Shown here: one piece after another, positions 1,148-55,145 of the stretch
Layout of the letters: every line of letters starts with the position of its first letter
How positions within the stretch are numbered: the stretch's first letter is position 1
Source of the DNA: a virus
IMG/VR virus record: IMGVR_UViG_3300045988_121401
Direction: 5' to 3' (one strand)
DNA: 55,862 nt
Position numbers and translations under genes: made by a program
The notes under the pieces: model-generated
Database searches by the model: none
What the model was told of the DNA's origin: nothing
The model's input: the letters and a program-made list of their open reading frames with translations, nothing else

Positions 1148-1648
1148 GCGCACACGTCGTCGCGCACCGAGGGCGTAGCGGGCACCCTGAGCCCGGGGCG
1201 GTTCGCGAGGGCGCAGCGCAGCAAGCCCGAGCGACACCCCGCCCCGTGGCGAACCGCCCCGCACAGCCCTCCCCTGCCAAGATGGCGTATGCCCGCCATG
1301 CTCCCGCCGGCCCCTCAGGGCCGGGCGGTAGGAGTATGGCGGCATGCGCTTTCCTTGGCAGGGCACTGAGCCTCATAGGGCGAGTGTTCGAGGGGCGTGT
1401 ATGCCATGGCTGCGCACCGGCTCGCCCAGGTGCTCGCGTCGCGGAGCGCAGCGACGCGCTGGCACCGTAGCGAGCGGGGTGCACCCTGGCATGCACGCAG
1501 CCGAGGGCGCTCGCGCGCAGCCGCGGCCGACCGGCAGGCCGCTAGGCCGGTCGGACGGGGGCAAGCAGGGGGCGGACCGCCTCAAGGACGGGACCGTCCG
1601 GCACCCCTGCCCCGCCATTTTGTGTGACCCGCGCCACGGCTAGCCTAT

Positions 1649-6062: not shown

Positions 6063-6542
6063 TCAGATCAGTGTGAGAGGCGTCTCCTCCCCGGCGTCGA
6101 TCTTCGGCGGCTTACGCTTCCACTGACCGAGGACCTTGTCCACGGTCTGCCGGGTCATGCCTGAGACCGAGCTGAGGACGGACTTCGACACACCGCGCGA
6201 GTACGCGGCCAAGACCTCCTGCTGAAGCGCAGCGCGGGCGAGCTTCGCGTCCCGGCGGGCCTTGCGGTCGAGCCGGGCGGCCTCCTCCAGAGGGTCATCG
6301 AGAGGGGGCTCAGGCTCCAGGTCGTCGGTCTGAGAGGTAGGTAGCCGCTGCTCCAGAGCGTGGGCGCGCTCCTGAGAGTCCCCCAAGGCCTTCGCCTGCT
6401 GGACGGTCAGCAAGAGCAGCTTGCGCAGGTCCTCGACCATCTTGCGCTCGGCGTCGATCCCGAAGGCCCCGCGGTAGCCCTTGCCGTTGGCCCAGTCCTC
6501 CAGGCGCTTAGGCAGGTCTGCTACATCGTTGATGGATGTCAT
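6063..6542 (-). CDS. DNA-binding protein with C-terminal helix-turn-helix
   Basis: C-terminal GVSKSVLSSVSGMTRQTVDKVL reads as an HTH. ATAGGAGACACCT lies before the ATG. Confidence 0.6.
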   Translation of the reverse strand: MTSINDVADLPKRLEDWANGKGYRGAFGIDAERKMVEDLRKLLLLTVQQAKALGDSQERAHALEQRLPTSQTDDLEPEPPLDDPLEEAARLDRKARRDAKLARAALQQEVLAAYSRGVSKSVLSSVSGMTRQTVDKVLGQWKRKPPKIDAGEETPLTLI

Positions 6543-6551
6543 AGGTGTCTC

Positions 6552-6938
6552 CTATAGGAATTTGGTGAATGAATACTGATCGGCAGGCACTATGGCCCAC
6601 CACGAGTGCCTGGGCCGCTGGTAGTTCTCGGCCGATGTGCGGACTTTGTCCAGAACCTCCCGCATGTCTCTCAGACCGGAGAAACTCTTCCGAGCCTCGC
6701 CGTCCTTGGAGATCTCCACGGTAATCCCAGAATAGTTCCGGTCAAGGCGTACCAGGAAACCGCCGTCCCGTAATGTCAGGGCCCGCGCCCCTGTCGTCAG
6801 TACCGGGGAAGCGGTCTTTAGACGTAGTTTGAGACCGTTCCAGAAGGCTATGTACGCCAGATCGAGGGCGGCTGAGTAGCTGATCTTCAGATGACGGGCG
6901 ACGAAGAGTCCGGTCACCCTCGGTAATATGTTCAGCAC
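6552..6938 (-). CDS. Hypothetical protein (128 aa), lower-GC cassette
   Basis: ORF overlapping its upstream neighbour by 7 nt. No domain recognised. Confidence 0.6.
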   Translation of the reverse strand: MLNILPRVTGLFVARHLKISYSAALDLAYIAFWNGLKLRLKTASPVLTTGARALTLRDGGFLVRLDRNYSGITVEISKDGEARKSFSGLRDMREVLDKVRTSAENYQRPRHSWWAIVPADQYSFTKFL

Positions 6939-7150
6939 TCCAACGCCTCACAGTCCCCGTCGCCGAACTCCCGCAGCTTGACCGTGAACCCCTCACGCAG
7001 GGCACACCTGATGTACGGGCCTAGCCGGTCCGGGTCCGGCTCGTTCATGACGATCTTCTCTACCGTCCCGACGGGCTGGTCGCCGGCGTAGGCCATATCG
7101 AGCCGGTAGGGGTCAGGAAGGCGACCTACTCTCACGTCCATATCACTCAC
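6932..7150 (-). CDS. Hypothetical protein (72 aa)
   Basis: Overlap-coupled ORF between 7143..7937 and 6552..6938. Confidence 0.5.
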   Translation of the reverse strand: MSDMDVRVGRLPDPYRLDMAYAGDQPVGTVEKIVMNEPDPDRLGPYIRCALREGFTVKLREFGDGDCEALEC

Positions 7151-7937
7151 CCCCCTCTAAACACTCGGCCAGCAGGGCCAGCGCGTAGTGCGCGATGGTG
7201 AGAACAGGCTCAGTCAGGCCGCCGGCCAGCCTCCTCTGACCCTCCCCAGTCTCGCGAGCCTCATCGACCCGGGCCGCCGCGGTCCCGGCCAGGGAGGCCA
7301 CGGCGGGGAAGCCTCCGATGGCGGGGTCCGACTCGACCCGCTCCCGGACTTCGGCCAACACCTCCGATGCCTTTATGCCTACATCCGGGCGCCTCGGGGA
7401 GCCGATCTCAGCAATCCACTCGACGCAGAGGCGGACGATACGAGCCAAAGCTCGTTCCTTCTCCAGACTGGCCGGACCCCTCTCCAGGTCCTGAAAATCT
7501 GAGATAGCGCCTAGCAGGAGCGCCAGATACTCCTCGGAGGAGGTATCGGACATGGTCATCGACCCGCTCAGGGCCTCCTCCACCTTAGAGACGGCCTGAT
7601 CCAGGGGAGACCTGGCCGGAGGAGTTACGTGTGAGGTGACTTGTAGAAGAGCGCTCAGGCGCCGCTCGGAGAGGACGGCGCCTCTGAACTCGTCGCGCAA
7701 GCGCTTCAGATCAGCGGCGGGTACGGGCTCGACGTCCTCCCAAGCGCGAATGCTGCCGGTATCTGGGTCGTTACTGCGTAGGAGGTGTCCAGTACCTGAT
7801 CCCTGGATGATCTGATACTTAAAGTCCGTCCCGGCCGCTGCGAGCCCTGCCGATGCCGCTAGCGCGCCATGGAGCGGGACCCCTCGTAGATTCCCGGAGA
7901 TGATGCGGATAAGGGGGCTAGATGGCCAATCACCCAT
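7143..7937 (-). CDS. Hypothetical protein (264 aa); helical C-terminus ends like the adjacent MazG-like protein
   Basis: The C-terminal ...HYALALLAECLEGGE compares with ...IALALAWATRYLEGEEV of 7941..8459. Confidence 0.6.
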   Translation of the reverse strand: MGDWPSSPLIRIISGNLRGVPLHGALAASAGLAAAGTDFKYQIIQGSGTGHLLRSNDPDTGSIRAWEDVEPVPAADLKRLRDEFRGAVLSERRLSALLQVTSHVTPPARSPLDQAVSKVEEALSGSMTMSDTSSEEYLALLLGAISDFQDLERGPASLEKERALARIVRLCVEWIAEIGSPRRPDVGIKASEVLAEVRERVESDPAIGGFPAVASLAGTAAARVDEARETGEGQRRLAGGLTEPVLTIAHYALALLAECLEGGE

Positions 7938-7940
7938 CGC

Positions 7941-8459
7941 TCACACCTCCTCACCCTCAAGGTAGCGGGTAGCCCAGGCCAGGGCCAGGGCGATGACCTG
8001 GATCACCTCGGACTCCAGGTCCGAGCCGTGACCGGTCTCGGCCTCGTTGTCGTAGGTCAGGCAGGCGGCGACCTCGCCGATCTCCTCCACGAGGGCGAAC
8101 AGGCGCATGTCGTCAGTGGGGCCGTCGCAGTCCAGCGTCATGCCGGGGTGCTTCGCGGCGGCGCTGGTGTACTCGTCCAGGGCTAGGGCGAGGACGTCGT
8201 AATCCTTAGGCAGGATCCTGGCCGCCGCGTTGGCTAGTTTCCACAACCGCTCCCGGATCCCTGCCCTACCGAGGGCCTCGCCGTGGAGCAGCATGGACGC
8301 GTAGTGGCACATCCATGCCACCTCCTCGGCCGGGTCGGGCAGGATATCGCGGGCGATCTCTGACGGGAAGTCCTTGCGACCCTCCTCCCACGCTTCAGCC
8401 ATGCGGCTACGAGTGACAATCTCGGCGCGGGCGGGGGCGCTGTCTTGAGGCGGCGTCAT
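7941..8459 (-). CDS. mazG: MazG-like nucleotide pyrophosphohydrolase
   Basis: LVEEIGEVAACL ... LESEVIQVIALALAW matches the EExxE / ExxD-type helical MazG signature (recalled). Confidence 0.65.
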   Translation of the reverse strand: MTPPQDSAPARAEIVTRSRMAEAWEEGRKDFPSEIARDILPDPAEEVAWMCHYASMLLHGEALGRAGIRERLWKLANAAARILPKDYDVLALALDEYTSAAAKHPGMTLDCDGPTDDMRLFALVEEIGEVAACLTYDNEAETGHGSDLESEVIQVIALALAWATRYLEGEEV

Positions 8460-8527: not shown

Positions 8528-10219
8528 TCAGAACCTAGGAACCGCGCCTGCCAGTGAGAGACCGCTCACAGCGCGGCGGATCGTCCCCCTCGGGACGAAC
8601 AGCGACGCCTGGCCGGCGTCCCGCAGGCCGAGCAGGCCCATGCTCAGCGCGTCCACCTGGTCGTCGTGGCGTCCTGACGGGAACGCGCGCATCTCGGAGA
8701 TGAGCTCGTTCACCCACCCGTTACCCGGGTCCGACGGGTGGGGGAGGTAGACGTTGCCGGACTCGATCTCCGGCGTCACGGCGCGGGCCCGGACCTCCTT
8801 GGACGAGCGGGGCTTGATCGGCTTGATGCCGGCGACTTTCTTGCGCAGCACGTCGATGGCCGCCGTACCGTTGGCCGCGTCCTCTACGAGGCGCTGATGG
8901 ACGAACGATCCGCCGGGGGACACCTTGTCATCCAGGTCGCCGGCGTTGCACCAGCGCAGCATCTTCTCCAACGTTTGGGTGAAGCTCCACTGCCCGCGCT
9001 GCTGAGCGATCAGGAACCTGTCAGGCCCCTGCCGGCACCATCGCTGGCCTACGGCGTAGTCCGACGTCGAGCTTCCCTTGAAGGTGAGGTCCCACGAGTC
9101 GAGCCACTGTCCCCGCTCCAGCCGCTCGCGTGGCAGGAGGATGACGGAGTCGTCGCCCTCCTTCACCTTGGACGAGTCGGTCGTCCAGAACCGGAGCCAC
9201 CCGAGGTTGAAGATCGAGCCGTCGGCCGGCGTCGGGTGCTGCTGGTAGAGCGCCTCCCACATGTACGAACCGACCGACCGCTTGAGCGAGTCCCAGCGCT
9301 CCAGGGCCTCCTCGCGGGTCTCCTCCACGAGCGGGCTGTAGAGCGGGTCGCCCGGCTCTCGACCGAGTGGGTCGTCCTCCTCGGCGATGGCGGGGAAGAT
9401 CACGTTCTCCCACTTGCCGGCGTCCGGATTCTTGGCCGGGTTCAGGAGGCGGCCGATGAAGTCGTCCTCGTGCCAGCGGGTGGCGATGGCGATGCAGAGA
9501 AACGGAGGCTCCAGACGGGTGACGGCGTTAGCCTGCCACCAGTCCCAGATCGCTTCCCTCTTTGACTCACTGTGAGCGTCGGCGAAGTCCTTCACGACGT
9601 CGTCCATCAGCATCACCTTGAAACCCAGACCCGTGATGGACTGGCCCGGCGCTGAGCGGGAGACGATCCCGCCGCCCCGCGTCGTCTGCCACTCGCTCAC
9701 GGCGCCGGCGTCGGACGCGATCTTGATGCCCCACTTCTTCCCATCCTCCTCGACGAAGCGGCGGACCTGCCGGCCCCAGGCCGTGGCGAGCTGCGGAGAG
9801 TGTGAGATCAGGCCGATCTTCCAGTCCGGGTGCTGGCGCAGCAGCCAGATCGGGAGGTTGATCGAGGTCAGCGTGGACTTACCCATGCGCGGCGGCATCG
9901 AGATGGTCATGTAGCGGTTCTCCCCGGCCTCGACGGCGCGCACGGCCTCGGTCAGGCGGTCGGAGAGGTACTGGATGTGGGGACGGCCTGCGTATGCCTC
10001 ATCGAGCTGCTGGGCGCTCTCCAGCGGGCTGGCCGCCTGGCGGTAGGTCGGGTCGTGGGGGTACGGGGCGCCGGCGTGAGGCCTGCCGTCGCACGAGGGG
10101 AGAGAGCACTTCGGCTGGTTCTCCAGCCACGCCTGGCGCTTGATGAGGGCCTCCAGCTCCTCCTCCAGCTGGGCCGGCGTCATCTCCCACGGCTCCAGCG
10201 GCTTTTTCACTCGGGGCAT
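8528..10219 (-). CDS. terL: Terminase large subunit
   Basis: Walker A PPRMGKST, Walker B MLMDDV, nuclease-region TRWHEDD. 563 aa. Confidence 0.9.
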   Translation of the reverse strand: MPRVKKPLEPWEMTPAQLEEELEALIKRQAWLENQPKCSLPSCDGRPHAGAPYPHDPTYRQAASPLESAQQLDEAYAGRPHIQYLSDRLTEAVRAVEAGENRYMTISMPPRMGKSTLTSINLPIWLLRQHPDWKIGLISHSPQLATAWGRQVRRFVEEDGKKWGIKIASDAGAVSEWQTTRGGGIVSRSAPGQSITGLGFKVMLMDDVVKDFADAHSESKREAIWDWWQANAVTRLEPPFLCIAIATRWHEDDFIGRLLNPAKNPDAGKWENVIFPAIAEEDDPLGREPGDPLYSPLVEETREEALERWDSLKRSVGSYMWEALYQQHPTPADGSIFNLGWLRFWTTDSSKVKEGDDSVILLPRERLERGQWLDSWDLTFKGSSTSDYAVGQRWCRQGPDRFLIAQQRGQWSFTQTLEKMLRWCNAGDLDDKVSPGGSFVHQRLVEDAANGTAAIDVLRKKVAGIKPIKPRSSKEVRARAVTPEIESGNVYLPHPSDPGNGWVNELISEMRAFPSGRHDDQVDALSMGLLGLRDAGQASLFVPRGTIRRAVSGLSLAGAVPRF

Positions 10220-10258
10220 AGGTGTCTCCTATCGCTGAGGTGGACTTCCATATGGATA

Positions 10259-10299
10259 CAGAATACCGCCACCCCTCATGCCAGGGTGGCGGTATTCTG
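10259..10299 (-). terminator. Perfect 16-bp hairpin CAGAATACCGCCACCC-N9-GGGTGGCGGTATTCTG between terS and terL
   Basis: Read directly. No U-tract. Confidence 0.5.
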
Positions 10300-10321
10300 C
10301 CCCAATGTCCCGGGGTCAACT

Positions 10322-10918
10322 CTACTGCTCGGGATCGATCACCTCAACGTCAGCGGGTCCGACATCTATGAGACCCTGCTCACGCTTACGGCGCTCTACC
10401 TCTGCTACCAGCTGCTCGATCCTCGACGTCGTGGCCGAGGCCGTCATCTCGGCTAGGTTGGAGGAGACCTCGATCTGCACCTTGGCCGAGTCGGCCCCGG
10501 CGCCTGCCGCCTCTCGCTCGATACGTGCCGCGACGTCCATCATCTGGACGATGCCGTTCGCACTCATGCGGGCGATCCGGTCCTCGGTGAGGCTGTCGAG
10601 CCACAGCTCGGCCTTCTCCAGGGCCTTGCGGCCAAGGGCCCGGTGGCGGTCCCCCATGGCGATCCGATAGCGAACGAGCTCATTCGCCTCGGTCTCGGCC
10701 ATGTGCTTGTCCCAGGCCTCGACGCGCTCCTTCCAGGACCACCGGGCCGAGTAGGAGTTGCCGTTGGGGGCGTCACGCACCCGTCGGCGCTCCATGTCTC
10801 GGTAGGTCTTGAAGGAGGCGTAGGCGGCCTCGGTCTCGCCGTCCTGCCGCTTCCAGATCGGGCGGGTGTAGTCCAGCGGGGCCGGCTTTCTCGGCGCCGG
10901 CGGCTTCGCTGTAGTCAC
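10322..10918 (-). CDS. terS: Terminase small subunit (putative)
   Basis: Position immediately upstream of terL. The N-terminal ETEAAYASFKTYRDMERRRVRD is typical of actinophage small terminases (recalled). Confidence 0.6.
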   Translation of the reverse strand: MTTAKPPAPRKPAPLDYTRPIWKRQDGETEAAYASFKTYRDMERRRVRDAPNGNSYSARWSWKERVEAWDKHMAETEANELVRYRIAMGDRHRALGRKALEKAELWLDSLTEDRIARMSANGIVQMMDVAARIEREAAGAGADSAKVQIEVSSNLAEMTASATTSRIEQLVAEVERRKREQGLIDVGPADVEVIDPEQ

Positions 10919-17983: not shown

Positions 17984-18328
17984 TTAATCTCCGCTGTAAT
18001 AGGCTCGGATCGCCTGTACGATCCTCCGCTCCCCGTCGACGTAGACATTCGCCGACGTCTGCCAAAGATGCCAGCCGCGAGAGTGCAGCATGGCAATGGC
18101 GTCAAGGATCTCCTCGAATTTCTTCAGGCCGAATGACGCGACGGTGATGTCGGGGACGTCGTTCTGTCGTAGCAGGGTCTCGATCGCCTTCCAGTCATTC
18201 AGGCCCCGCACACGGTATCCGCGATCGAACACGGGGTGGGCCGAGCCGCCCTCCTCCCACGCCCTCTCGAACGCCTCTTCAGGCGTCAGCAGGGGAAGCT
18301 TGTCGAAGTCACGCACCGGCGTCCTCAC
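17984..18328 (-). CDS. Hypothetical protein (114 aa)
   Basis: ORF overlapping the primase-helicase stop by 20 nt. Confidence 0.55.
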   Translation of the reverse strand: MRTPVRDFDKLPLLTPEEAFERAWEEGGSAHPVFDRGYRVRGLNDWKAIETLLRQNDVPDITVASFGLKKFEEILDAIAMLHSRGWHLWQTSANVYVDGERRIVQAIRAYYSGD

Positions 18329-20708
18329 TCTCCTCGTCGTCCAGGTTCCGCTCCGCAGGGCCGTCCTCGCCGACGGCGATCAAGGTGTACCGGTGTCCGC
18401 CGCGATCCCCGGCGGACATGATCCATCCTCGAGAGATCAGCCGGCCCAGGGCGGCCTTGGTACGCGACCTAGGCAGGTCCGGATCGATGATGTCGTACAG
18501 CTCCCGAGAGTTCATCTGGGTGCCGATCTCGCCGCGGAACGCCCCGATCACCGTGTCCTCGTCGTCCTGGCGCTGGGCGATCTTCTCCATCATCTTGGAC
18601 ATGTCGGTGAAGTCCAGCTCCACGCGACGCTCAACGTCGTTCACGTCCCCGCCCTCGGCGTTCAGGACGCCGCCACCCCCTGAGGGAGTGCGCCGCGGGG
18701 GAGTGATGACGAGGGACGAACGCCCCTCGGTGCGGCTGTCGAGCGTGACCACGCCGGCCACCTGAGCCTTTCCGCGCCCGCCCGTCTTCTGGGAGTGGGC
18801 ACGGACCTGGCCGGGCCGGTCCTTCAGCACGACCAGCTCCATCTCACCGACGTCGCCGGGCATGGGCTGCTTGATCGGCCACACCTGGAGCAGGGTCCCC
18901 TGCACCATGGCGACCTTGTGCTGAGAGCCGATGGGCATGGAGCCCTTCTCGGCGCTCTTGGCCTGGTGGTCGATGATGATCACCGTCGAGCGACCGTTGC
19001 GGGTCAGCCGCTTCAGCCACGACGTGATGACGTCCGTCGAGACGGCGTCATTCGCGTCCAGTCCGTGCAGGCCGTAGAGCGCCGTCATACCGTCGGCCAC
19101 GATGATGTCCGGGTCGAGCGAGGTCAGGGCCATGTCGAACTGATCCTGGGCGAACTCGCCGGACTTGGTCGGCTGGTCCTTGCCCCACTTGTTGCGCTGC
19201 ATGTCGGCCAGGGGGCCCTCGGGGCGAATGTAGGAGAACTGGGCCCGAAGGTCGTCGTCCACGGCGCCCAGCAGGCGCAGGCGGTTGAGCGTCTGGACAG
19301 GCTCATCCTCGAAGTCGAGGTACAGGGCGCGGCCGCCGGCCTCGATCTCCTGGAGGCAGATCGCCATGGCGATCCACGACTTCGCCGACTCCGAGGAGCC
19401 GAAGAGCATGTTCACGCGGCCCCGGTACATGAGACAGGCGCCGTCGTTGCGGCGGCAGACCTCCGGGTCCGGGACGGTGAGCTTCCCCGTCAGGTACGGC
19501 TCCAGGTCGACGGGGCTCCAGGACGACGGGCGCGCGTCCAGGGGGTCCAAGTCCTCGCAGGGGCCCTCATCGGGACCTTCCTCCTTGACTCCGTCCCCCC
19601 CAACGCCGTGCTCCGGGAGGAGAGCCCCGAGCGAACGGGGCCCTTCAGCGTCACCGGCCTCGACGAACTCGGGCCCCGGAGCCGAGTCGTCGAGCTCGAT
19701 CGTCAGGCCGTCCCACTGCCGTGCCCATGGCGGCTGCCATCCCGGCACGTCGCCGGCCACGTCCGGCACGAAGCCGGCCACGGCCTCAGCGTCGCGCACG
19801 AGGCGCTCTACGAGCTGCACGCTCTCCTCCCCGATGTACTCGGCCAGGCGGGTGAAGCCGGTGGCCTCCCCGCCCTCCCGAAGGCGGCGCTTCGTAGTGT
19901 AGATCGCCTCACGCTCGCGCTGCTCGGCCCCGTCCTCGTCGTGGGTGGCCAGGGCGAGGGTGCGGATGACGAGGCCCGCGTTGCGCTCCCAGAACGGGTG
20001 CACGGTCTGCGAGTCGCCGTAGCGAAGGAGGCCTCCGGCGAGGGCGACGTAGGCGTCGTGGCGCTGGCCCGGGCCCGGCCACGAGTCCAGCAGGACGGAG
20101 CACAGCCCGAGGAGGACGACCTGGGCCAGGAGCTCGGTGCCGTCCACGACGGCGGGGCCCTCGGCGCCGCCCCAAGGCTCACCCTCCCACTCGTAGGTCT
20201 CGGCCGTGGTGGGGTGGATCGAGGGCGGCACGAGGGTCTGGGCCCCGTTACCACGGATCTCGACTGACACGCCGGAGCCTCGGCCCGACTTGTCGGGCAT
20301 GCGCAGGCGCCGGGTCGCCGGCAGGGTGCCAGGCTTGGCGCGGTACCAGTAGTGCGACTTGCGGGACGTCTCGCGGCCGTGGACCGCTGCCGTGTAGGGC
20401 AGCAGGTACGACTTCAGCCGCGCCGCGGCGGGGTGGTCGAGGTCGACGTCGATCAGGTCGCCTGAGGCCTCGCCGAGGAGGATGCCGAGGTTGGTCGATC
20501 CGCCCGCCGTGTACTCCTCGAAGGCGGCGCGGACGGCGTCCTCGCCCTCGCCGGTGTCGATCGCGGGGTCCGGCCAGCGGAGCTTCGTCCAGCCGGCCAT
20601 CGTGGGGCTCTTGGAGTGACGAGTAATGGGCAGAGGCGTTAGTCCCCTACGGTACGCGTCAAGGGCCGCCTCGACGACGGCCGCGTTATGCTGCTCAGTT
20701 GTGCTCAT
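18309..20708 (-). CDS. Bifunctional primase-polymerase (prim-pol) / RecA-fold replicative helicase
   Basis: N-terminal LTPLPITRHSKSPTMAGWTKLRW and LIDVDLDHP (prim-pol). Central MLFGSSESAKSWIAMA...LYLDFED (AAA_25/DnaB-like). C-terminal winged-helix-like tail. Confidence 0.8.
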   Translation of the reverse strand: MSTTEQHNAAVVEAALDAYRRGLTPLPITRHSKSPTMAGWTKLRWPDPAIDTGEGEDAVRAAFEEYTAGGSTNLGILLGEASGDLIDVDLDHPAAARLKSYLLPYTAAVHGRETSRKSHYWYRAKPGTLPATRRLRMPDKSGRGSGVSVEIRGNGAQTLVPPSIHPTTAETYEWEGEPWGGAEGPAVVDGTELLAQVVLLGLCSVLLDSWPGPGQRHDAYVALAGGLLRYGDSQTVHPFWERNAGLVIRTLALATHDEDGAEQREREAIYTTKRRLREGGEATGFTRLAEYIGEESVQLVERLVRDAEAVAGFVPDVAGDVPGWQPPWARQWDGLTIELDDSAPGPEFVEAGDAEGPRSLGALLPEHGVGGDGVKEEGPDEGPCEDLDPLDARPSSWSPVDLEPYLTGKLTVPDPEVCRRNDGACLMYRGRVNMLFGSSESAKSWIAMAICLQEIEAGGRALYLDFEDEPVQTLNRLRLLGAVDDDLRAQFSYIRPEGPLADMQRNKWGKDQPTKSGEFAQDQFDMALTSLDPDIIVADGMTALYGLHGLDANDAVSTDVITSWLKRLTRNGRSTVIIIDHQAKSAEKGSMPIGSQHKVAMVQGTLLQVWPIKQPMPGDVGEMELVVLKDRPGQVRAHSQKTGGRGKAQVAGVVTLDSRTEGRSSLVITPPRRTPSGGGGVLNAEGGDVNDVERRVELDFTDMSKMMEKIAQRQDDEDTVIGAFRGEIGTQMNSRELYDIIDPDLPRSRTKAALGRLISRGWIMSAGDRGGHRYTLIAVGEDGPAERNLDDEESEDAGA

Positions 20709-20756: not shown

Positions 20757-20789
20757 AACCGGTGACCGGTAGTCAGCCGGTCACCGGTT
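20757..20789 (-). terminator. Hairpin AACCGGTGACCGG-N7-CCGGTCACCGGTT overlapping the stop of 20781..21125, followed by TTTCAGGG
   Basis: 13-bp perfect stem. Confidence 0.6.
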
Positions 20790-21125
20790 CGAGGGGTTGT
20801 CTGGATTGGTGAAGGTGGTCCGATGGGGAGTCACCTTGATCCCCGAAGGGTGTGGAGCCAGATCTAGCTCGCGATTCCCGTACGCCTCCATGAGGCGCGC
20901 TAGGACGATCCTGGGCTGAAGGCCCTGGCGCTCTGCCCGGCGGACGACGCGGTCCCAGGTAGCCTCCCTCATCCTGAAGCTGACCGACTTGCGAGGTCCG
21001 GAAGGGTCACCCGGCTTCCGGCCGAAGTCGATCGATGTGGGGGCATCCAACGGTGCGAACCGCTGGTCGAGGTCTGGGCGGTCGTCCACGTAGGGAACGA
21101 GCTTGTCCTTGCTGGGGCGGGGCAT
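20781..21125 (-). CDS. Ribbon-helix-helix (CopG/Arc-like) DNA-binding protein
   Basis: Trimmed to ATG 21125 (GAGGAG SD). KSVSFRMREATWDRVVRRAERQGLQPRIVLARLMEAY fits RHH. Confidence 0.6.
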   Translation of the reverse strand: MPRPSKDKLVPYVDDRPDLDQRFAPLDAPTSIDFGRKPGDPSGPRKSVSFRMREATWDRVVRRAERQGLQPRIVLARLMEAYGNRELDLAPHPSGIKVTPHRTTFTNPDNPSNR

Positions 21126-21144
21126 GTCATCTCCTCTGTCGGGT

Positions 21145-21159
21145 GTATGCCCCGCATAC
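21145..21159 (-). promoter_or_regulatory. Palindrome GTATGCCCCGCATAC (N5 variant) 19 nt upstream of the RHH start codon
   Basis: Read directly. Same half-sites as P1-P6. Confidence 0.45.
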
Positions 21160-22071
21160 ACTACCCGAAGGGTATTGGAACCTCAAGGCTCCGAGGGCCT
21201 AGGTGGCCGGGCGGTTGCCGCGTCCCGCGGCTGGTAAGTCCATTCTTTACGAAGGCTCATGGGACGTTGACTAGACGTCCGGGCGAATCTTGTGTCTCAG
21301 GTCCTGCATACGCGGCCGATTGATCCATCACGCATTCGCACGGTCCCGCAGAGGCAGTTCCCCTCGCTCGATGTTCTCAAGTCCCGTACCCCGCCCGAGC
21401 TCGACAGTGATGATGAAGCGCTCGTAAGGGGCCGTTTTACATGGGAATACCGAGGAAGCGTTTCAGCGGGGAACCCTTGCGAGCAGCTTCCCCCCACGTC
21501 TCGGGACCTGTCGATGACGCCGTGAGCACGCTTCGAGCTGGTCGTCCGGCTCGTCACCTCGTCGCTCGGCAGCGCGAGTTTACCGATACCGGACGGGCTC
21601 TCAACCCGTGCTCCCCCTCCGCCCACTTTGGAGACTCCAACCGCGGTGTCCTCCCCGACTACGAGCCAGGTTTGGTGTGAGGGCCTACGAGGTCCATTCC
21701 TCCGCTGCGTAAAGATGGTTAGCGGAATCCAGTTGTCCGAGCCCTGCGAGCCTTCTAGCGGTGGTCGACTTGGCTTAGGGCCCTCGGCTGATCCTCCGAG
21801 GCTGCCCCGTCCGTCCAGGCCATCGCGTACTCGCAAAGCCTCCCGGCTTACCGGGTATCGCCCCGCCTCGGGTTAGTTCCTCACTCAGTTAGAACCGGGC
21901 CGTTTCCACCGCTGAATCGCGGTGGCCGGTCCTAGGAGTTTCGCTCCCTCGGCGGCGCTGGAACTATTAAACCACATCCCCGGGGGGCGGGCGCAAGTCG
22001 AAATGAGATTTCCTGCCGTGAGTGTCGTCACATTTGCGCGGGGCGGGTGGCGCGGCCCTCCCGGAACGAAG

Positions 22072-22086
22072 GTGTGTGTGTGTGTG
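22072..22086. repeat. (GT)7 alternating purine-pyrimidine tract
   Basis: Read directly. Confidence 0.9.
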
Positions 22087-22199
22087 GGCCGGCACTGCCC
22101 GCCGCGGGCCGGCGCCGGAGTTCCTCTGAGGCGTTCTAAGCCATTCTGAGCGCCTTTCAGGGCCGTACCCCTCCGGGAGTGCGGGGACGGGGTAAAAGT

Positions 22200-22230
22200 C
22201 CCTCAGAAGGGCTTACACGGCCTCTGAGGG
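22200..22230. repeat. Hairpin CCCTCAGA-N15-TCTGAGGG; its minus strand carries GCCGTGTAAGCCCTTCTGAGGG, an inverted copy of the 2825/3015 repeat
   Basis: Compared by eye with 3011-3032 (GCCGTGTAAGCCTCTCTGACGG). Confidence 0.7.
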
Positions 22231-22353
22231 GCATGTACGGGCCTCTCCCCGGCACGAAGGTGCGGTGGCGGGTACGTCCAAGCCTTGGATCGAAGGCTGT
22301 TCGGGACTGACCGCCGTCGGAGTCCGAGGTCGCTGAGAGGCCCGAGGGGCGGG

Positions 22354-22395
22354 CGTGTTGACCGAGCGCAGCGCAGCGGAGCGAGCCTCAACACG
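22354..22395. repeat. Twin hairpin A: stem CGTGTTGA/TCAACACG, loop contains AGCGCAGCGCAGCGGAGCGAG (22365-22385)
   Basis: Read directly. Confidence 0.85.
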
Positions 22396-22549
22396 GCGAC
22401 CCGAGGAAAGCCTCTCCGCCGGGGAGCCGAGAACCTGCGAGGACCCGCGGGCGACCGGCGCCCCAGCGCCGCAGCGCCTTTCGCGGGGACACCGCAGGGG
22501 CGAGCCTCCCAGGCGCTTGCGACGGCCGCGGTTCGAACCGGGGTTCAAA

Positions 22550-22593
22550 GACCCGACCCCGAAGCGCAGCGCAGCGGAGCGAGGGGTCGGGTC
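22550..22593. repeat. Twin hairpin B: stem GACCCGACCCC/GGGGTCGGGTC, loop contains the same 21-mer (22563-22583)
   Basis: Read directly. The stem is unrelated to hairpin A and the loop 21-mer is identical. Confidence 0.85.
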
Positions 22594-22644
22594 GGAACCG
22601 GCAACGGGTGCGGAACCGGCACCGGCAACGGAGTGGCCCAGGTC

Positions 22645-22661
22645 ACATATATACATATATT
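22645..22661. other. AT island ACATATATACATATATT in GC-rich context
   Basis: Read directly. Confidence 0.8.
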
Positions 22662-22690
22662 CCACTACCCACACAACACGAGCGCCCCTC

Positions 22691-22729
22691 GGGTCTCCTC
22701 CCCCCCTGACTTCGTCAGGGGGAGGAGAC
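22691..22729. terminator. Long hairpin GGGTCTCCT-C7-TGAC-TTC-GTCA-G5-AGGAGACCC
   Basis: About 18 bp with a 2-nt bulge. No U-tract. Confidence 0.5.
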
Positions 22730-22932
22730 CCGGGGGCGCGAGTGTGTGTGGGCGCGCGCGGGCGCGCATGATGGCAAATTCCGGGGCGGAATTCAAGCGC
22801 AAAACGATGATGTTGTTCACGGAATAGGCCCGTAAAAGTGGGATATTCATCACAGGCCGATTTGGGAATACGGTCCGACACGCCGATGAACCCCAGCAAT
22901 AGCGCAAAAGTGCAAACTTTGCGGGGCAAACC

Positions 22933-22957
22933 GTATGACTCCATACAACCAGCATAC
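22933..22957 (-). promoter_or_regulatory. GTATGACTCCATAC (22933-22946) overlapping a copy of GTATGC(C)TGGTTGyATG (22941-22957, minus); -10-like TACGGT on the minus strand
   Basis: Similar to 2058-2074. No good -35. Confidence 0.35.
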
Positions 22958-23004
22958 ATGTGTCCAGAATGTGAGACGGGAGGCTGCGGAAGGGCTGAAA
23001 GGGC

Positions 23005-23057
23005 GTGACCGGCGTCACTTGTCTCACTATGCGGACACCTGTCTCAGCATGCGGACA
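23005..23057. promoter_or_regulatory. GTGAC-CGGC-GTCAC (23005-23018) plus direct repeat TGTCTCANNATGCGGACA x2 (23020-23037, 23040-23057)
   Basis: Read directly. TGTCTCA is the half-site of the palindromes at 23720 and 23831. Confidence 0.6.
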
Positions 23058-23090
23058 GGCGGCCTGGGGAGTGATTCAGGGCACACAAAA

Positions 23091-23117
23091 GGGCCCCAGC
23101 CGCGATGGCTGGGGCCC
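23091..23117 (-). terminator. Intrinsic terminator GGGCCCCAGCC-GCGAT-GGCTGGGGCCC followed by TTTTGTGTG
   Basis: 11-bp GC stem plus U-tract on the minus strand, 14 nt after the stop of 23131..23622. Confidence 0.8.
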
Positions 23118-23130
23118 TCCGATCCGGGGC

Positions 23131-23622
23131 TCAGGCGTCCCTCGGAGCCCGTCGGTAGGGGGTCTTGTTGCGGGCCGGGCGGCGTGTCCCGCCCCTCGTC
23201 ATCGTGCCTGGGAAGGTCGGGTCGATACGGCGAGCCCTGCGTAGCCAGGAGTCCACGGTATAGATGCTGCGGCCCAGCTCCTTGGCGATGTCGGTGCGGG
23301 TCTTGCCCTCCTCGATCATGGTCCGCAGCGTCTCGACGGGCGCCCCTCGGTACTGGTTGCCCCCTCGTGCAGGCTTCTCGGCCCTCTCAAGCACGTTTGC
23401 GGCGATTTCACAGAGGGTCCTGTGGGGGACACTGTCGGGGAAGCGAACGCCCTCGTCTGGGCGGCACAGGAGGTTCACGACGTGGTAGCGGCCGCCGGCG
23501 TCCGGCTCCTCGGTGATCTCGACCCAGTACTCGATCTCGTTCTTCGTGTCCCTGACCTGGACGGCTGGGCGGCCCTGGATAGTGGCCTTGCGGGCGGGGT
23601 AGGTACGAAGCGCGTTGCGCAT
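23131..23622 (-). CDS. DNA-binding protein with C-terminal helix-turn-helix
   Basis: Trimmed to ATG 23622 (TAGGAGACACC before the ATG). TRTDIAKELGRSIYTVDSWLRRAR reads as an HTH. Confidence 0.65.
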   Translation of the reverse strand: MRNALRTYPARKATIQGRPAVQVRDTKNEIEYWVEITEEPDAGGRYHVVNLLCRPDEGVRFPDSVPHRTLCEIAANVLERAEKPARGGNQYRGAPVETLRTMIEEGKTRTDIAKELGRSIYTVDSWLRRARRIDPTFPGTMTRGGTRRPARNKTPYRRAPRDA

Positions 23623-23678
23623 GGTGTCTCCTAAAGTGTGGTGTGATGCAGGTCTCTTGGCTAGTTGGGAATAGGCTA

Positions 23679-23846
23679 GAATACGTTGCAATCACTGCGT
23701 ATTCCCGATTTCTGAGTTTTGAGACGTATGTCTCAGGAGATGTGGGGTGAAAGTGTGATGCATGTCTCCGAGAATGCGGGAATACAGGACTTTCCCCAGC
23801 GTTTCCAACGTATTCCCGGTTTTGAGGTTTTGAGACGTAAGTCTCA
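23679..23846. promoter_or_regulatory. Operator array: two 38-nt direct repeats (23698-23735, 23809-23846; 34/38 identical), each ending in TGAGAC-N4-GTCTCA and each paired with an upstream inverted GGGAATAC(G) arm
   Basis: Palindromes at 23720-23735 and 23831-23846. Inverted arms at 23679-23685/23698-23704 and 23777-23785/23810-23818. Confidence 0.7.
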
Positions 23847-23847: not shown

Positions 23848-25941
23848 TCAGACGGCTGGGAGCGGGTCGTCCTCATCGTGCAGGTCGTGCACGCCCCACC
23901 GGGTGCCGGCCGAGGGACCTGCCACTACGGGCACGTCCATCTGGCAGTCGAGCGGGCGCAGGAACGTGTTGACGTCCTCCATCCGGCGCTTGCACTCGAT
24001 AAGGATCTCCTGCCAGCGGTCCTCGGGGACCTCGATGCAGATCTCGTCATGCACGGTGGCCACGACATGCGCCCCTTCGACGCGGGGGAGCGGGTAGCCG
24101 GGCAGCGTGCCCATGATCGACGCAGCGGCCATCTGCATGAGGTCCGAGCCGAAGCCCTGCACGGGACTGTTCAGGGCGTTGCGCTCAGCGTGGGAGGACT
24201 TAAACGAGCTCTTCGAGTACAGGTCGCTGAGCCACTGAGTGCGGCCTATGGGGGACGTCACATAGCCACGCTCGTAGGCCCGGCGCTTGGCTCGCTCGTG
24301 CCACTGGCGCATGCCATCCCACATCTCGAAGAATGCGCTGTGGACGGCCTGAGCCTCGGCCAAAGTGAGAGAAACGTCATAGGCAGTGGCGGCGTAGGAC
24401 TGGAATCCGCCAGGGCTCATGCCGTAGAGGAGGCCGAAGTTGCCGGCCTTCGCCCGCTTGCGCTCCATCGAGGTCACGTCCTCGGGCGCCTTGCCGGCGA
24501 TCCTCGCGGCGAGGAGCCTGTGAAGATCATCACCCCGCTGGAACGCCTCGATCATAGGCCCCGATCGCGAGATGAAAGCCGCCACCCGTAGCTCGACCTG
24601 GCTGTAGTCGAGGTCGAGCAGAACGTGACCGGGTCGGGGGATGAAGGCCGGTTTTAGTGAGCTTGCACACTGCTGGAGGTTCGGGGAGGCACAACTTAAT
24701 CTTCCCGTGCGGACAAATCCCACGTTGTAGGTGGCGTGGATCACGTTGTTGGGGTCCTTGAGCTTCAGCCAGGAGCGCAGGAACTCCAGCGTCTTCGTCG
24801 CGTCACGGTGGCGCAGCAGCGCGTCGGCGGCCGGGCTGCCCTGCCGCTGCTGGGCGATGAGGACCGCCTTGTTCCACTGAGCGTTTCCGGAGTCCGTGCG
24901 CGCCGTCACACGCAGGTCGCCCGCCTCGATGGCTTGAGCCACGAAGCCCTGGAACCACTTCGACGTGGCCGCCGTGGTCACGCCGTCCTTCGCCGGAGCC
25001 GGCGCCGGGGCGGTCCCGTACAGGCCGAGGATGTCCTCGCAGGCCTTCAGGCGCAGGGAGTCCATCTCCTCGATCTTGGCATGGACCCAGTCGACGTCGA
25101 GGAGGAAGCCCCTCTGCTCCACCTTTGTGAGGGTCTTCACAGTAGGCATGGAGACGCAGGTGGCGACCTTGCCCAGGCGGGCCATCTGGATGTCGTCGGA
25201 GTCGAAGGGCTCCTCGTCACCGGTGAGGAACATCTGGTCGCGGTGCTCCTCCTCGATCTTCCAGGTGTAGTAGGTGTCACGCGCCGCGTACTCGCCGAGC
25301 TGGATCAGGTCCACCTGCTCGGCGGCGCCGGGAGTGCTGAGGTCGAAGTCGTCCCACTCTTCGATCCCGAAGTCGCGCGCGGCGCGAATCTTCAGACGGG
25401 TGCGGGCCTCGGTGTCCACCAGCTGGGACGATACGGTCGTATCCCACTCGATACGGTCGGACAGGTCCACGCCGGCCTGGGCGAAAACCCAGCGGGCGTC
25501 GAACTTGATGTTCGCGTTGACGAAGGGCTTCCCGCTGCGGTTGATCTCACGGCCGATGATCGCCATGACCTTTCTCCACGCGCCGAGCAGCGGCGAGGCC
25601 GGGTGTGAGAGGGGTACGAGGTAGGTCATCGGCTGCTCGCCGTCGAAGGTGCGCCAGTTGTAGGCGCCGGCCGCGGCGCGCTCAGCGCTCGGGAGGGTAA
25701 GGGAGGCCAGGACGATCCGGGCGGGGTAGCCGCCGTTGGTGTCTCCGCCGGCCTCCGCGTACTCGTCCAGGCCGGTGGTCTCGAGGTCCATGACGACCCT
25801 CTGCGAGGCGCGGATGGCCTTGAGGAGGACCTTAAGGTCCTCCTTACCCCAGACCCACGTGATCGGGCCGCAGGGCGTGTGCGAGCCCTGGGCGGCCTTC
25901 CTGGCCCGGCCCACAATCTTCTCCAGGTCCATGATGCTCAT
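23848..25941 (-). CDS. Family A DNA polymerase (Pol I-like) with 3'-5' exonuclease domain
   Basis: VMDLETTGLD (Exo I), RKRAKAGNFGLLYGMS (motif B), ATVHDEICIEV (motif C). Confidence 0.9.
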   Translation of the reverse strand: MSIMDLEKIVGRARKAAQGSHTPCGPITWVWGKEDLKVLLKAIRASQRVVMDLETTGLDEYAEAGGDTNGGYPARIVLASLTLPSAERAAAGAYNWRTFDGEQPMTYLVPLSHPASPLLGAWRKVMAIIGREINRSGKPFVNANIKFDARWVFAQAGVDLSDRIEWDTTVSSQLVDTEARTRLKIRAARDFGIEEWDDFDLSTPGAAEQVDLIQLGEYAARDTYYTWKIEEEHRDQMFLTGDEEPFDSDDIQMARLGKVATCVSMPTVKTLTKVEQRGFLLDVDWVHAKIEEMDSLRLKACEDILGLYGTAPAPAPAKDGVTTAATSKWFQGFVAQAIEAGDLRVTARTDSGNAQWNKAVLIAQQRQGSPAADALLRHRDATKTLEFLRSWLKLKDPNNVIHATYNVGFVRTGRLSCASPNLQQCASSLKPAFIPRPGHVLLDLDYSQVELRVAAFISRSGPMIEAFQRGDDLHRLLAARIAGKAPEDVTSMERKRAKAGNFGLLYGMSPGGFQSYAATAYDVSLTLAEAQAVHSAFFEMWDGMRQWHERAKRRAYERGYVTSPIGRTQWLSDLYSKSSFKSSHAERNALNSPVQGFGSDLMQMAAASIMGTLPGYPLPRVEGAHVVATVHDEICIEVPEDRWQEILIECKRRMEDVNTFLRPLDCQMDVPVVAGPSAGTRWGVHDLHDEDDPLPAV

Positions 25942-55144: not shown

Positions 55145-55145
55145 C

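What the first reader, a model, noticed from the sequence alone, without database searches (positions are those of the whole stretch)
21160..23090. About 1.9-kb coding desert between the DNA polymerase and primase-helicase modules: candidate large structured ncRNA and/or replication origin
Elsewhere genes abut or overlap by 1-8 nt. Here 1.93 kb has no credible ORF. The longest frames (179 and 248 aa, minus strand) are Arg/Gly/Ser/Pro-rich. A hand count of third-position GC in the 21292 frame gives about 65%, versus clearly higher values in flanking genes. The block is insulated. Upstream on the minus strand is a canonical U-tailed terminator (23091-23117), and downstream are the RHH gene's own palindrome and promoter. 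Inside it are many nested helices (e.g. 21454-21490, 21592-21608, 21784-21803, 21905-21925, 22200-22230, 22354-22395, 22444-22487, 22550-22593, 22691-22729), a (GT)7 tract, an AT island and copies of elements found in the other desert. Large ornate phage-borne RNAs (GOLLD and ROOL classes) are a known precedent. An origin next to the replication genes is the alternative. I cannot assign it to any family by eye.
Basis: partly seen in the sequence, partly recalled or inferred. Interest (0 to 1): 0.8.

Follow-up and report, generated by a model that had tools for sequence, protein, structure and literature searches.

The report
Structured non-coding region in oral phage
A 2-kb gene-free stretch between the DNA polymerase and primase genes of an uncultivated high-GC phage is real and kept in all 34 related genomes that span it, and its core is a roughly 300-base element that folds on one strand, most likely an undescribed non-coding RNA lying beside DNA repeats that resemble a replication origin.

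Summary
The coding desert is real. Window 21162-23130 has no GC3 periodicity, no conserved ORF and no 3-periodic substitution. A 1.8-2.5 kb gap sits at this position in all 34 IMG/VR and GenBank relatives that span it. It is not one 1.9-kb RNA but a mosaic.

The core, SD (22329-22599, + strand), is a closing helix plus three long hairpins. On 26 sequences it has 97 pairs, 99.4% of cells paired and 16 pairs with compensatory changes. A covariance model built from the close clade alone finds the same hairpin in a divergent clade. Rare G·T variants occur in 11 helix pairs and A·C in none, so the + strand folds, antisense to the flanking genes.

Hairpins A and C carry an identical (GCGNA)4 tip. 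A second domain with such tips (SD2, 1165-1560, +) ends at a + strand terminator.

Around SD lie a sequence-conserved inverted-repeat block (E2), short iterons, an AT island and an 85-bp palindrome.

Nothing matches Rfam (no GOLLD, ROOL, tRNA or tmRNA).

Best reading: a new + strand structured ncRNA beside origin-like or regulatory DNA (0.45). Main rival: single-stranded-DNA priming signals of an origin (0.33).

The parts
21162..23130 (.). Whole non-coding interval between the RHH ORF (20781-21161, minus; the true start may be the ATG at 21125) and the 186-aa HTH ORF (23131-23691, minus)
   Evidence: No GC3 periodicity. No conserved ORF in 35 genomes. No 3-periodic substitution. A gap of 1.8-2.5 kb in all 34 spanning relatives.
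22329..22599 (+). SD, the structured core. P1 is 22329-22334 with 22518-22523. Hairpin A is 22335-22416. Hairpin B is 22417-22515. Hairpin C is 22550-22593, with an outer helix 22542-22546 / 22595-22599.
   Evidence: fold_alignment gives 97 pairs, 16 of them compensatory. The count of structure pairs gives 99.4% of cells paired and 106 double-change cells against 36±4 in shuffles, with slid controls at 0-3. G·T variants occur in 11 pairs and A·C in 0. Single-sequence fold z is -3.0 for + and -0.8 for -.
22365..22385 (+). Tip of hairpin A: AGCGCAGCGCAGCGGAGCGAG, i.e. (GCGNA)4, a GC-GNA-GC mini-hairpin stacked on a GNA/GGA internal loop
   Evidence: Identical 21-mer at 22563-22583. Only the N positions vary among relatives. 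The motif occurs only on this strand.
22563..22583 (+). Tip of hairpin C, the same 21-mer
   Evidence: Covariation at alignment columns 250/264 (CG, GC, UA) supports the mini-hairpin register.
22122..22262 (.). E2: a block conserved in sequence in all clades. It carries inverted 14-mers TAAGCCNTTCTGAG (22137-22150 on +, 22202-22215 on -) and extra CTCTGAGG copies. Probably protein-binding sites (operator, or origin- or promoter-associated).
   Evidence: nhmmer hits in every clade and in both orientations. The alignment of 45 sequences gives almost no consensus fold, -0.3 / -5.9 kcal/mol. 14-mer search.
22060..22074 (+). Direct 15-mer CCCGGAACGAAGGTG, with a second copy at 22248-22262. Each copy is followed by a hypervariable spacer (22076-22120 and 22263-22328).
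   Evidence: (D6).
22593..22632 (+). Iteron-like repeats: 18-mers x2.2, containing CGGCAACGG, CGGCACCGG and CGGCAACGG
   Evidence: Analogous GGCAACGG repeats sit at the same place in the divergent clade.
22644..22662 (.). AT island CACATATATACATATATTC, conserved in both clades
22668..22752 (.). PAL: an 85-bp near-perfect palindrome (arms 22668-22710 and 22714-22752, loop TTC), followed by a conserved GC block 22753-22767
   Evidence: Matched indels on both arms. Conserved in all clades, with a CTTCGG or CTTCG centre in the divergent clade.
23016..23055 (.). Tandem 20-mers CACYTGTCTCANYATGCGGA
   Evidence: Conservation 0.93.
23082..23118 (-). Intrinsic terminator of the HTH gene: 12-bp stem, 5-nt loop, tail TTTTGTGTG
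   Evidence: I8; 4 covarying pairs.
21162..22059 (.). Left part: non-coding and less constrained. Local hairpins with covariation at 21215-21233, 21259-21280 and 21469-21494. Presumably the promoter, operator and leader of the RHH-primase operon.
   Evidence: No strand asymmetry: 37 G·T against 44 A·C pairs.
1165..1626 (+). SD2: a second structured domain (1165-1560) with GCGNAGC-bearing hairpins, ended by a hairpin plus TTTTGTGTG terminator (1556-1626) on the same strand. It lies downstream of + strand ORFs 92-886 and 944-1090.
   Evidence: 26 covarying pairs in 11 sequences; G·T 11 against A·C 3.

Best explanation
The gap is a lineage-specific, truly non-coding control region made of separate modules. 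Its core (SD, 22329-22599) is most likely a non-coding RNA of about 0.3-0.45 kb. This RNA would be transcribed from the + strand, antisense to the flanking replication genes.

The RNA would fold into a closing helix and three long hairpins, two of which display the same (GCGNA)4 tip. Transcription would start in or just after the conserved inverted-repeat block E2, cross an unconstrained leader, and end at the 85-bp palindrome PAL. The repeated identical tips here, in the paralogous domain SD2 and in the divergent clade suggest a scaffold that binds several copies of one protein.

Given the neighbours (Prim-Pol helicase, family A polymerase, iterons, AT island), the most likely role is control or start of phage DNA replication. 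The remainder of the gap is DNA-level signals: operator-like repeats, the leader of the RHH-primase operon, and terminators.

**Shown:** non-coding status, conservation, the fold, the folding strand, and the absence from Rfam.

**Inferred:** that the folded molecule is RNA, its ends, the protein partner, and the replication role.
For: **Non-coding and conserved:**

**Structure:**
- 97 pairs with 99.4% of cells paired; 16 compensatory pairs; slid controls 0-3.
- The long-range helix P1 closes a multibranch junction, and its sixth pair covaries (AU/CG/UA).
- A model built from the close clade alone recovers hairpin A in the divergent clade at the same place and strand (E about 1e-3). That alignment has 9 of 27 pairs compensatory.
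- The L036-type clade has the same order of hairpins, five further compensatory pairs inside those hairpins, and three invariant G·U pairs on the + strand.

**Strand:**
- G·T variants in 11 helix pairs against A·C in 0.
- The + strand fold is lower in energy in 26 of 26 sequences.
- z is -3.0 for the + strand and -0.8 for the - strand.

**RNA rather than DNA:**
- SD2 shares the tip motif and the strand.
- SD2 lies inside a + strand gene block and is directly followed by a hairpin plus TTTTGTGTG tail on the + strand. The only other copy of this tail is at the confirmed terminator of the HTH gene.
- SD2 and the divergent clade keep G·U pairs as the majority state.

**Dispensability:** a natural variant, L048, lacks most of SD, which fits an accessory element better than a sole origin.
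Against: - No promoter could be identified for a + strand transcript. The sigma-70 scan is at chance level, and E2 has no TANNNT-type -10 at a sensible spacing (my reading).
- PAL has no U-tract on the + strand, so the 3' end is a guess.
- In the close clade SD has almost no fixed G·U pairs, which is also what a DNA hairpin would show.
- The tip motif GCGNAGC is the 'mini-hairpin DNA' motif. It is far more stable as DNA than as RNA and recurs at ssDNA priming sites (PMC13037366).
- Iterons, the AT island and the palindrome next to SD are classic origin features.
- Eight of the compensatory pairs in hairpin B travel together as two or more linked haplotypes, so the independent events are far fewer than the 106 cells counted.
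- There are no expression data.
Confidence: 0.45

Rival explanations
1. SD (and SD2) act as single-stranded DNA. They would be single-strand initiation signals of the phage replication origin. After an initiator binds E2 and/or the iterons and the AT island melts, the + strand folds. The (GCGNA)4 mini-hairpin tips then direct the adjacent Prim-Pol primase-helicase to lay down a primer. That primer would be extended in the same direction as transcription of almost all genes. This follows the logic of RSF1010 oriV (iterons, AT-rich segment, ssiA/ssiB recognised by RepB').
For: - GCGNAGC with free N is exactly the hyperstable DNA mini-hairpin (Tm 70-76 °C; RNA versions are much weaker). It is reported at G4, St-1 and alpha3 priming sites, RSF1010 ssiA and N4 hairpin promoters (PMC13037366).
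- GCA loops closed by sheared G:A pairs mark Streptomyces telomere overhangs bound by Tap (PMC4513846).
- Only the N positions of the tips vary.
- The element sits between the family A polymerase and the Prim-Pol/AAA_25 helicase.
- Iterons, the AT island, the palindrome and the GC block have the same order in both clades.
- The fold is equally significant with DNA energy parameters (z = -3.4).
- SD in the close clade has nearly no fixed G·T pairs. G·T is tolerated only at low frequency and A·C never.
Against: - Both tip-bearing hairpins, and SD2, lie on the same strand. RSF1010 has one ssi on each strand.
- A 190-nt long-range closing helix and 100-nt hairpins with conserved internal loops are unusual for ssi signals.
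- SD2 lies in a transcription unit and ends at a same-strand terminator.
- Majority G·T pairs occur in SD2 and in the divergent clade.
- L048 lacks most of SD.
- GC skew gives no clear switch at 21-23 kb; the best change-point is at 43.5 kb.
- The iterons are only 2-3 short copies.
Confidence: 0.33
2. There is no dedicated RNA or origin. The interval is an insulator or regulatory spacer between two minus-strand operons: terminator hairpins, operator repeats and a long leader. The hairpins would be kept only as transcription or replication barriers, or maintained by DNA-level quasipalindrome correction.
For: - A confirmed terminator sits at 23090-23118.
- PAL, read on the minus strand, is followed by a U/A-rich tract, which is clearest in the divergent clade.
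- E2 is conserved in sequence without a fold.
- Hypervariable spacers exist.
- The left 960 nt have no strand asymmetry.
- Template-switch repair can create compensatory changes in palindromes without selection on structure (established knowledge).
Against: - SD is the most conserved part of the gap, with 0.90-0.95 majority identity.
- Its bulges and internal loops are conserved rather than being perfected into palindromes.
- Its loops are invariant except at the N positions.
- The long-range helix P1 covaries.
- The fold is strand-specific, on the strand opposite to the operons it would insulate.
- A second, non-homologous domain of the same style exists.
Confidence: 0.12
3. The region holds decayed or unusual protein-coding genes, as the GenBank annotation of Dulem virus 38 implies with six 'hypothetical protein' CDS.
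For: Long ORFs exist by chance in 66% GC DNA. The Dulem virus 38 record annotates CDS there.
Against: - No GC3 bias.
- ORFs are not conserved in position or frame.
- Indels are not multiples of three.
- No 3-periodic substitution.
- The nearest isolates (Microbacterium phages, 44-46% primase identity) have two small genes and no 2-kb gap between polymerase and primase.
Confidence: 0.02
4. It is a diverged member of a described RNA family: GOLLD, ROOL, OLE, 6S/Ms1, tmRNA, RNase P, a group I/II intron or a riboswitch.
For: None beyond size and phage context.
Against: - Rfam 15 returns 0 hits at gathering thresholds over the whole 55.9-kb genome.
- E-value mode on the gap, on SD2 and on a divergent relative gives only generic long-hairpin hits.
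- ARAGORN finds nothing.
Confidence: 0.01

Closest known systems
RSF1010 (IncQ) oriV with ssiA/ssiB recognised by primase RepB'
   Same: The order of short iterons, AT-rich segment, GC-rich block and hairpins. The hairpins have tips containing a GNA mini-hairpin. A primase of a non-DnaG type and a helicase are encoded nearby. The folding is strand-specific.
   Different: Here the two tip-bearing hairpins, and SD2, are all on one strand. The hairpins are 60-100 nt and closed by a long-range helix. There are only 2-3 iteron copies. No priming assay exists. Membership is not shown.
Large phage-borne structured RNAs (GOLLD, ROOL)
   Same: Phage-encoded, multi-stem, supported by covariation, function unknown, found in a gene-free stretch.
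   Different: No match to their Rfam models. The structured core is about 300 nt rather than 500-800 nt. No adjacent tRNAs. The host range (high-GC oral Actinobacteria-like) differs.
Multi-hairpin protein-binding RNAs (CsrB/RsmZ type; 6S/Ms1 type)
   Same: Several hairpins present the same short motif at their tips, and the copy number varies between clades.
   Different: The motif is (GCGNA)n and not GGA. No partner protein is known. The comparison is an analogy from general knowledge and was not tested.
Origin transcripts (ColE1 RNA II; phage T4 and T7 origin RNAs)
   Same: A structured transcript lies just upstream of an AT-rich unwinding region, beside a family A DNA polymerase.
   Different: No promoter, RNase H site or R-loop evidence. 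No sequence similarity. Purely a functional analogy.
Streptomyces telomere palindromes (GCA loops with sheared G:A, bound by Tap)
   Same: Actinobacterial context. GC-GNA-GC hairpin tips on one strand serve as protein-recognition points for starting DNA synthesis (PMC4513846).
   Different: Those lie at physical 3' overhangs of linear replicons. Here the element is internal to a circularly assembled phage genome, and no Tap or Tpg homologue was seen.

Membership tests
Protein-coding gene | Codon-position GC bias typical of this genome (GC3 0.8-0.94) | tested here: not met
   GC3 is 0.54-0.76 in every long ORF of 35 deserts.
Protein-coding gene | A reading frame conserved among relatives, with 3n indels and 3-periodic substitution | tested here: not met
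Described RNA families (Rfam 15, incl. GOLLD, ROOL, tmRNA, introns, riboswitches) | Covariance-model score at or above the family's gathering threshold | tested here: not met
   One search gives 0 hits in the whole window. Searches give only sub-threshold generic hairpin hits. One search finds no tRNA or tmRNA.
Structured non-coding RNA (generic) | Conserved secondary structure with compensatory base changes above controls | tested here: met
   (16 pairs, 106 cells, against slid controls of 0-3).
Structured non-coding RNA (generic) | Strand-specific signal (G·U tolerated, A·C not) | tested here: met
   (11 against 0 for SD; 11 against 3 for SD2). ssDNA would give the same signal.
Structured non-coding RNA (generic) | Own promoter upstream and terminator downstream on the folding strand | tested here: inconclusive
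   No promoter was found. PAL lacks a + strand U-tract. SD2 does have a same-strand terminator.
Structured non-coding RNA (generic) | Detected transcript | not testable with these tools
   No expression data were available.
Iteron-type replication origin (RSF1010 / lambda-like) | Cluster of directly repeated initiator sites | tested here: inconclusive
   Three 9-mers lie within 33 nt (two exact copies out of three exact in the genome). Analogous repeats occur in the other clade. E2 inverted 14-mers.
Iteron-type replication origin (RSF1010 / lambda-like) | Adjacent AT-rich unwinding element | tested here: met
   a 15-19 nt AT island in 66% GC DNA, conserved in both clades.
Iteron-type replication origin (RSF1010 / lambda-like) | ssi hairpins on both strands | tested here: not met
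   the tip motif occurs on one strand only.
Iteron-type replication origin (RSF1010 / lambda-like) | Replication starts here (skew switch, marker frequency) | tested here: inconclusive
   Cumulative skew starts to rise near 20-22 kb, but the best change-point is at 43.5 kb. Marker frequency is not testable.
Mini-hairpin DNA motif (GCGNAGC) | GC-GNA-GC heptamer with any N, at a hairpin tip | tested here: met
   The motif definition comes from PMC13037366. Whether it forms as DNA in vivo was not tested.
Intrinsic terminator (23082-23118, minus strand) | GC-rich stem-loop followed by a U-rich tail, after a gene | tested here: met

The most novel reading that the evidence does not exclude
SD and SD2 would be founding members of a new class of phage single-strand scaffolds. 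Each genome would carry two non-homologous domains whose long hairpins display the same (GCGNA)n tips. These tips would recruit the phage's Prim-Pol helicase, or a host replication or repair protein, to defined sites on the template strand of nearly all genes. DNA synthesis would therefore be primed at only a few programmed sites and run co-directionally with transcription. The scaffold could be RNA or unwound DNA.
Probability: 0.2. Interest if true: 0.8.

Novelty: new member of a known kind. Interest (0 to 1): 0.58.

Why it matters
Phages rarely spend 3.5% of a tightly packed genome on non-coding DNA, yet this lineage keeps the interval across a whole clade from human and lemur mouths.

The core element has covariation support comparable to curated RNA families but is absent from Rfam. 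It therefore adds a new structured element from an under-sampled host group, the high-GC oral bacteria.

Its tips match a motif known from single-stranded-DNA priming sites, and it lies beside a Prim-Pol helicase. That makes a concrete question testable: how do Prim-Pol-type phage replisomes choose their start sites, and is the signal read as RNA or as DNA?

It also shows that the CDS annotated in this interval in the one GenBank relative are probably spurious.

Tried and rejected
**Searches that found nothing**
- Rfam at gathering and E-value thresholds on the window, SD2 and a divergent relative.
- tRNA/tmRNA search.
- Search of 185,579 species genomes with a primase alignment for prophage copies or a host: no relatives, so the host is still unknown.

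**Tests that were uninformative**
- Sigma-70 promoter and terminator scan: one promoter hit, at chance level, and it missed the real terminator.
- GC-skew change-point as an origin test: the best break is at 43.5 kb.

**Ideas tested and rejected**
- Coding potential by GC3, ORF conservation and substitution periodicity. A weak phase signal at 22640-22880 matches the frame of a 120-aa minus ORF, but 1- and 8-nt indels and the lack of periodicity exclude it.
- BLAST between the non-coding regions of the genome: no shared segments, only short motifs.
- E2 as an RNA structure: consensus fold energy near zero across 45 sequences.
- Scan of IMG/VR for the tip motif outside this lineage: the 12 other hits I folded do not place the motif at the tip of a long hairpin like A or C.
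- An N4-like hairpin-promoter idea: the genome encodes no RNA polymerase, and the 1089-aa protein is the tape measure.
- The HTH protein as an ECF sigma factor: only weak region-4 similarity.
- PAL as a protelomerase target: its centre (TTC) is not palindromic (my reading).
Full report
**What the window is.** The 55,862-nt window is a circular assembly. Bases 1-55 repeat at 55808-55862. It is a 66% GC siphovirus-like genome with nearly all genes on the minus strand.
- Packaging and structural genes: TerS/TerL at 8.5-10.9 kb; portal, capsid, tape measure and endolysin at 54-32 kb.
- Replication genes: a family A DNA polymerase (23848-25941), a Prim-Pol + AAA_25 primase-helicase (18309-20708), a helicase, exonucleases and a Sak4-like protein.
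- The only close GenBank relative is Dulem virus 38 from lemur saliva.
- IMG/VR holds 57 related contigs, many with HMP-style sample identifiers (human oral origin is my inference from the contig names).
- No relative was found in 185,579 species genomes.
- The nearest isolates by primase are Microbacterium phages at 44-46% identity. They have polymerase, two small genes and primase, without a large gap.

**The observation.** The interval 21162-23130 lacks the strong codon-phase GC signal that every flanking gene shows. Its long ORFs have GC3 of 0.64-0.73.
- All 34 relatives that span the interval have a gap there: 1777-1994 nt in the close clade and 2231-2524 nt in a clade with about 74% primase identity.
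- No ORF is conserved. Indels are not multiples of three, and substitutions are not 3-periodic.
- In the 24 close IMG/VR relatives, identity to the window averages 71-80% (58% for Dulem virus 38). This compares with 58-75% at four-fold sites and 91-98% at codon positions 1-2 of the flanking genes, so constraint is patchy.
- The conservation profile shows a mosaic. Blocks at 0.90-0.95 (22122-22262, 22332-22691) are separated by hypervariable spacers at 0.32-0.38 (22092-22121, 22272-22301).

**The structured core (SD).** The strongest consensus folding lies at 22290-22640. On 26 distinct sequences RNAalifold predicts four elements:
- a closing helix P1 (GTCGC/GCGAC);
- hairpin A (22335-22416);
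- hairpin B (22417-22515);
- hairpin C (22550-22593).

The prediction has 97 pairs, 16 of them with compensatory changes. The pair count gives 99.4% of cells paired and 106 double-change cells against 36±4 in shuffles. Structures slid by 1-3 columns give 0-3. Eight compensatory pairs in hairpin B segregate as linked haplotypes, so the independent events are fewer than the cells, but every variant is fully paired.

The fold extends beyond the close clade.
- A covariance model of hairpin A built only from the close clade finds the homologous hairpin at the same place and strand in a divergent subclade (E about 1e-3).
- It also finds hairpin C of the window as a paralogue (E = 0.026).
- In that alignment 9 of 27 pairs are compensatory.
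- The L036-type subclade, too diverged for BLAST, has the same order: a hypervariable leader, a GAGAGG...CCTCTC hairpin with a GCGAGCGCAGCGAGC tip, a 100-nt hairpin with a CCCC(C/T)A apex, and further hairpins. It also has five more compensatory pairs inside those hairpins and three invariant G·U pairs.

**Which strand folds.** In helices validated by covariation, rare one-sided variants are G·T in 11 pairs and A·C in none. The + strand consensus and all 26 single-sequence folds are lower in energy than the minus strand. The window's + strand has z = -3.0 and the minus strand -0.8. The folding strand is thus the + strand. This is antisense to the flanking genes and is the template strand for almost all genes.

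**The tips.** Hairpins A and C have different stems but an identical 21-nt tip, AGCGCAGCGCAGCGGAGCGAG.
- This is (GCGNA)4, read as a GC-GNA-GC mini-hairpin stacked on a GNA/GGA internal loop.
- Among relatives only the N positions vary (C, A, G, T). One flanking pair covaries (CG/GC/UA), which fixes the register.
- Runs of two or more GCGNA units occur 109 times on this strand and 20 times on the other across all fetched loci. In the loci I inspected nearly all lie in SD or SD2.
- The literature describes GCGNAGC as 'mini-hairpin DNA', with Tm of 70-76 °C for any N. RNA versions are much less stable. The motif is found at G4, St-1 and alpha3 priming sites, RSF1010 ssiA and N4 hairpin promoters (PMC13037366).
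- GCA loops with sheared G:A pairs mark the Streptomyces telomere overhang bound by Tap (PMC4513846).

**A second domain (SD2).** Window 1165-1560 (+) is another non-coding domain, with three long hairpins, GCGNAGC-containing tips and 26 covarying pairs in 11 sequences.
- It again favours the + strand (G·T 11 against A·C 3; 8 majority G·T pairs).
- It follows + strand ORFs (92-886, 944-1090) and is directly followed by a hairpin with the tail TTTTGTGTG on the + strand.
- That 9-mer occurs only twice in the genome. The other copy is the tail of the confirmed minus-strand terminator at 23082-23118.
- SD2 therefore very probably exists as RNA, the 3' part of a + strand transcript. This is the main reason I rank RNA above ssDNA for SD.

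**The DNA around SD.**
- E2 (22122-22262) is conserved in sequence in every clade, matches itself in both orientations, and has essentially no consensus fold. It contains inverted 14-mers TAAGCCNTTCTGAG and extra CTCTGAGG copies. This is the pattern expected of sites for a dimeric DNA-binding protein; an RHH protein and an HTH protein are encoded on either side.
- A 15-mer CCCGG(A/C)ACGAAGGTG flanks E2 on both sides, each copy followed by a hypervariable spacer.
- After SD, and in the same order in both clades, come CGGCAACGG-type repeats, a 15-19 nt AT island, an 85-bp palindrome whose arms carry matched indels, and a GC block.
- The right end holds tandem 20-mers and the terminator of the HTH gene.
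- The left 960 nt are less constrained, with a few covarying local hairpins and no strand asymmetry.

**Interpretation.** Three things are shown: the region is non-coding, it is conserved as a mosaic, and its core folds on the + strand. Whether that single strand is a transcript or unwound DNA cannot be decided from sequence.
- For RNA: SD2's transcription-unit context and terminator; the long-range closing helix and multibranch junction; fixed G·U pairs in SD2 and the divergent clade; and a natural genome (L048) that has lost most of SD by recombination between the two identical tips.
- For ssDNA or an origin: the mini-hairpin motif; the position between polymerase and Prim-Pol helicase; the order of iterons, AT island, palindrome and GC block, which resembles RSF1010 oriV; the near absence of fixed G·T pairs in SD; and the lack of a recognisable + strand promoter or U-tailed terminator.
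- GC skew does not settle it.
- I commit to a + strand ncRNA that acts as a multivalent protein-binding scaffold tied to replication control (0.45). The ssDNA initiation-signal model is the close rival (0.33).
- The two models are not mutually exclusive at the level of the whole gap. It may hold both an RNA gene and an origin.

**Comparison with known systems, and novelty.** The element fails the membership test for every Rfam family and for a coding gene. It meets the generic criteria for a structured RNA except promoter, terminator and expression. It meets some criteria of an iteron-type origin (AT island, repeats) but not others (ssi on both strands, skew switch). It is best called a new family within a known kind: a phage-borne structured non-coding element or origin region. 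It is restricted, as far as IMG/VR shows, to one lineage of oral high-GC phages.

**Verdict.** Interest is moderate to high. The signal is strong and unrecorded, and it makes a specific question about Prim-Pol start-site choice testable. However, the function is inferred and the host is unknown.

Noticed in passing
window 1-55 and 55808-55862: The two ends are identical over 55 nt, a circular assembly overlap. The junction lies inside an 18-nt x3 tandem repeat, CACACCGCCCCGCTCGGG.
   Followed up: partly
window 1165-1626 (+): A second covariation-supported structured domain (SD2; 26 covarying pairs in 11 sequences) with GCGNAGC tips. It ends at a + strand terminator with the same TTTTGTGTG tail as the HTH-gene terminator.
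   Followed up: yes
window 1626-2340: A further 700 nt of non-coding DNA holding several features: palindrome GTTGCAATTGCAAC (1717-1730), AT-rich patches (1737-1753, 2020-2190, within the 2001-2500 bin, one of the lowest-GC bins of the genome), TTCCCAGG x3, and a perfect 13-bp hairpin at 2189-2217 whose arms resemble the centre of PAL. It could be another origin, cos or regulatory site.
   Followed up: partly
window about 24685-24701; L001 9558-10348: The DNA polymerase gene of Dulem virus 38 carries about 790 extra nt here. The polymerases of L003, L004, L026, L030, L039 and L048 align to the window's only up to residues 421-451. This suggests an intein or homing-endonuclease insertion polymorphism.
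   Followed up: no
L048 (57.3-kb contig), equivalent to window 22387-22575: A natural deletion between the two identical 21-nt tips of hairpins A and C removes hairpin B and half of A and C.
   Followed up: partly
L001 (Dulem virus 38, PP511596.1) locus 6047-7952: The GenBank record annotates six 'hypothetical protein' CDS inside the homologous non-coding interval. None has GC3 bias or conservation, so they are probably spurious calls.
   Followed up: partly
window 8528-10918 versus 49806-54413: The terminase genes are about 10 kb (around the circle) from the portal gene. Between them lie small genes and a + strand island (55074-55598, 92-886, 944-1090, SD2, 2341-2829). This is unusual packaging-module synteny.
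   Followed up: no
window 2827-2840 and 3017-3030 (+): Two copies of TAAGCCTCTCTGAC, each 2 mismatches from the E2 14-mer. Four matches were found in the genome, against 0.55 expected.
   Followed up: no
window 23016-23055: Each tandem 20-mer carries CAT(A/G)(G/C)T on the minus strand, 35 nt downstream of the HTH-gene terminator. They may be minus-strand promoters or operators for a short transcript ending at PAL.
   Followed up: no
window 92-886 (+): A proline-rich ORF in 74% GC, strongly C-skewed DNA, with no PHROG match. It lies in the + strand island upstream of SD2.
   Followed up: no
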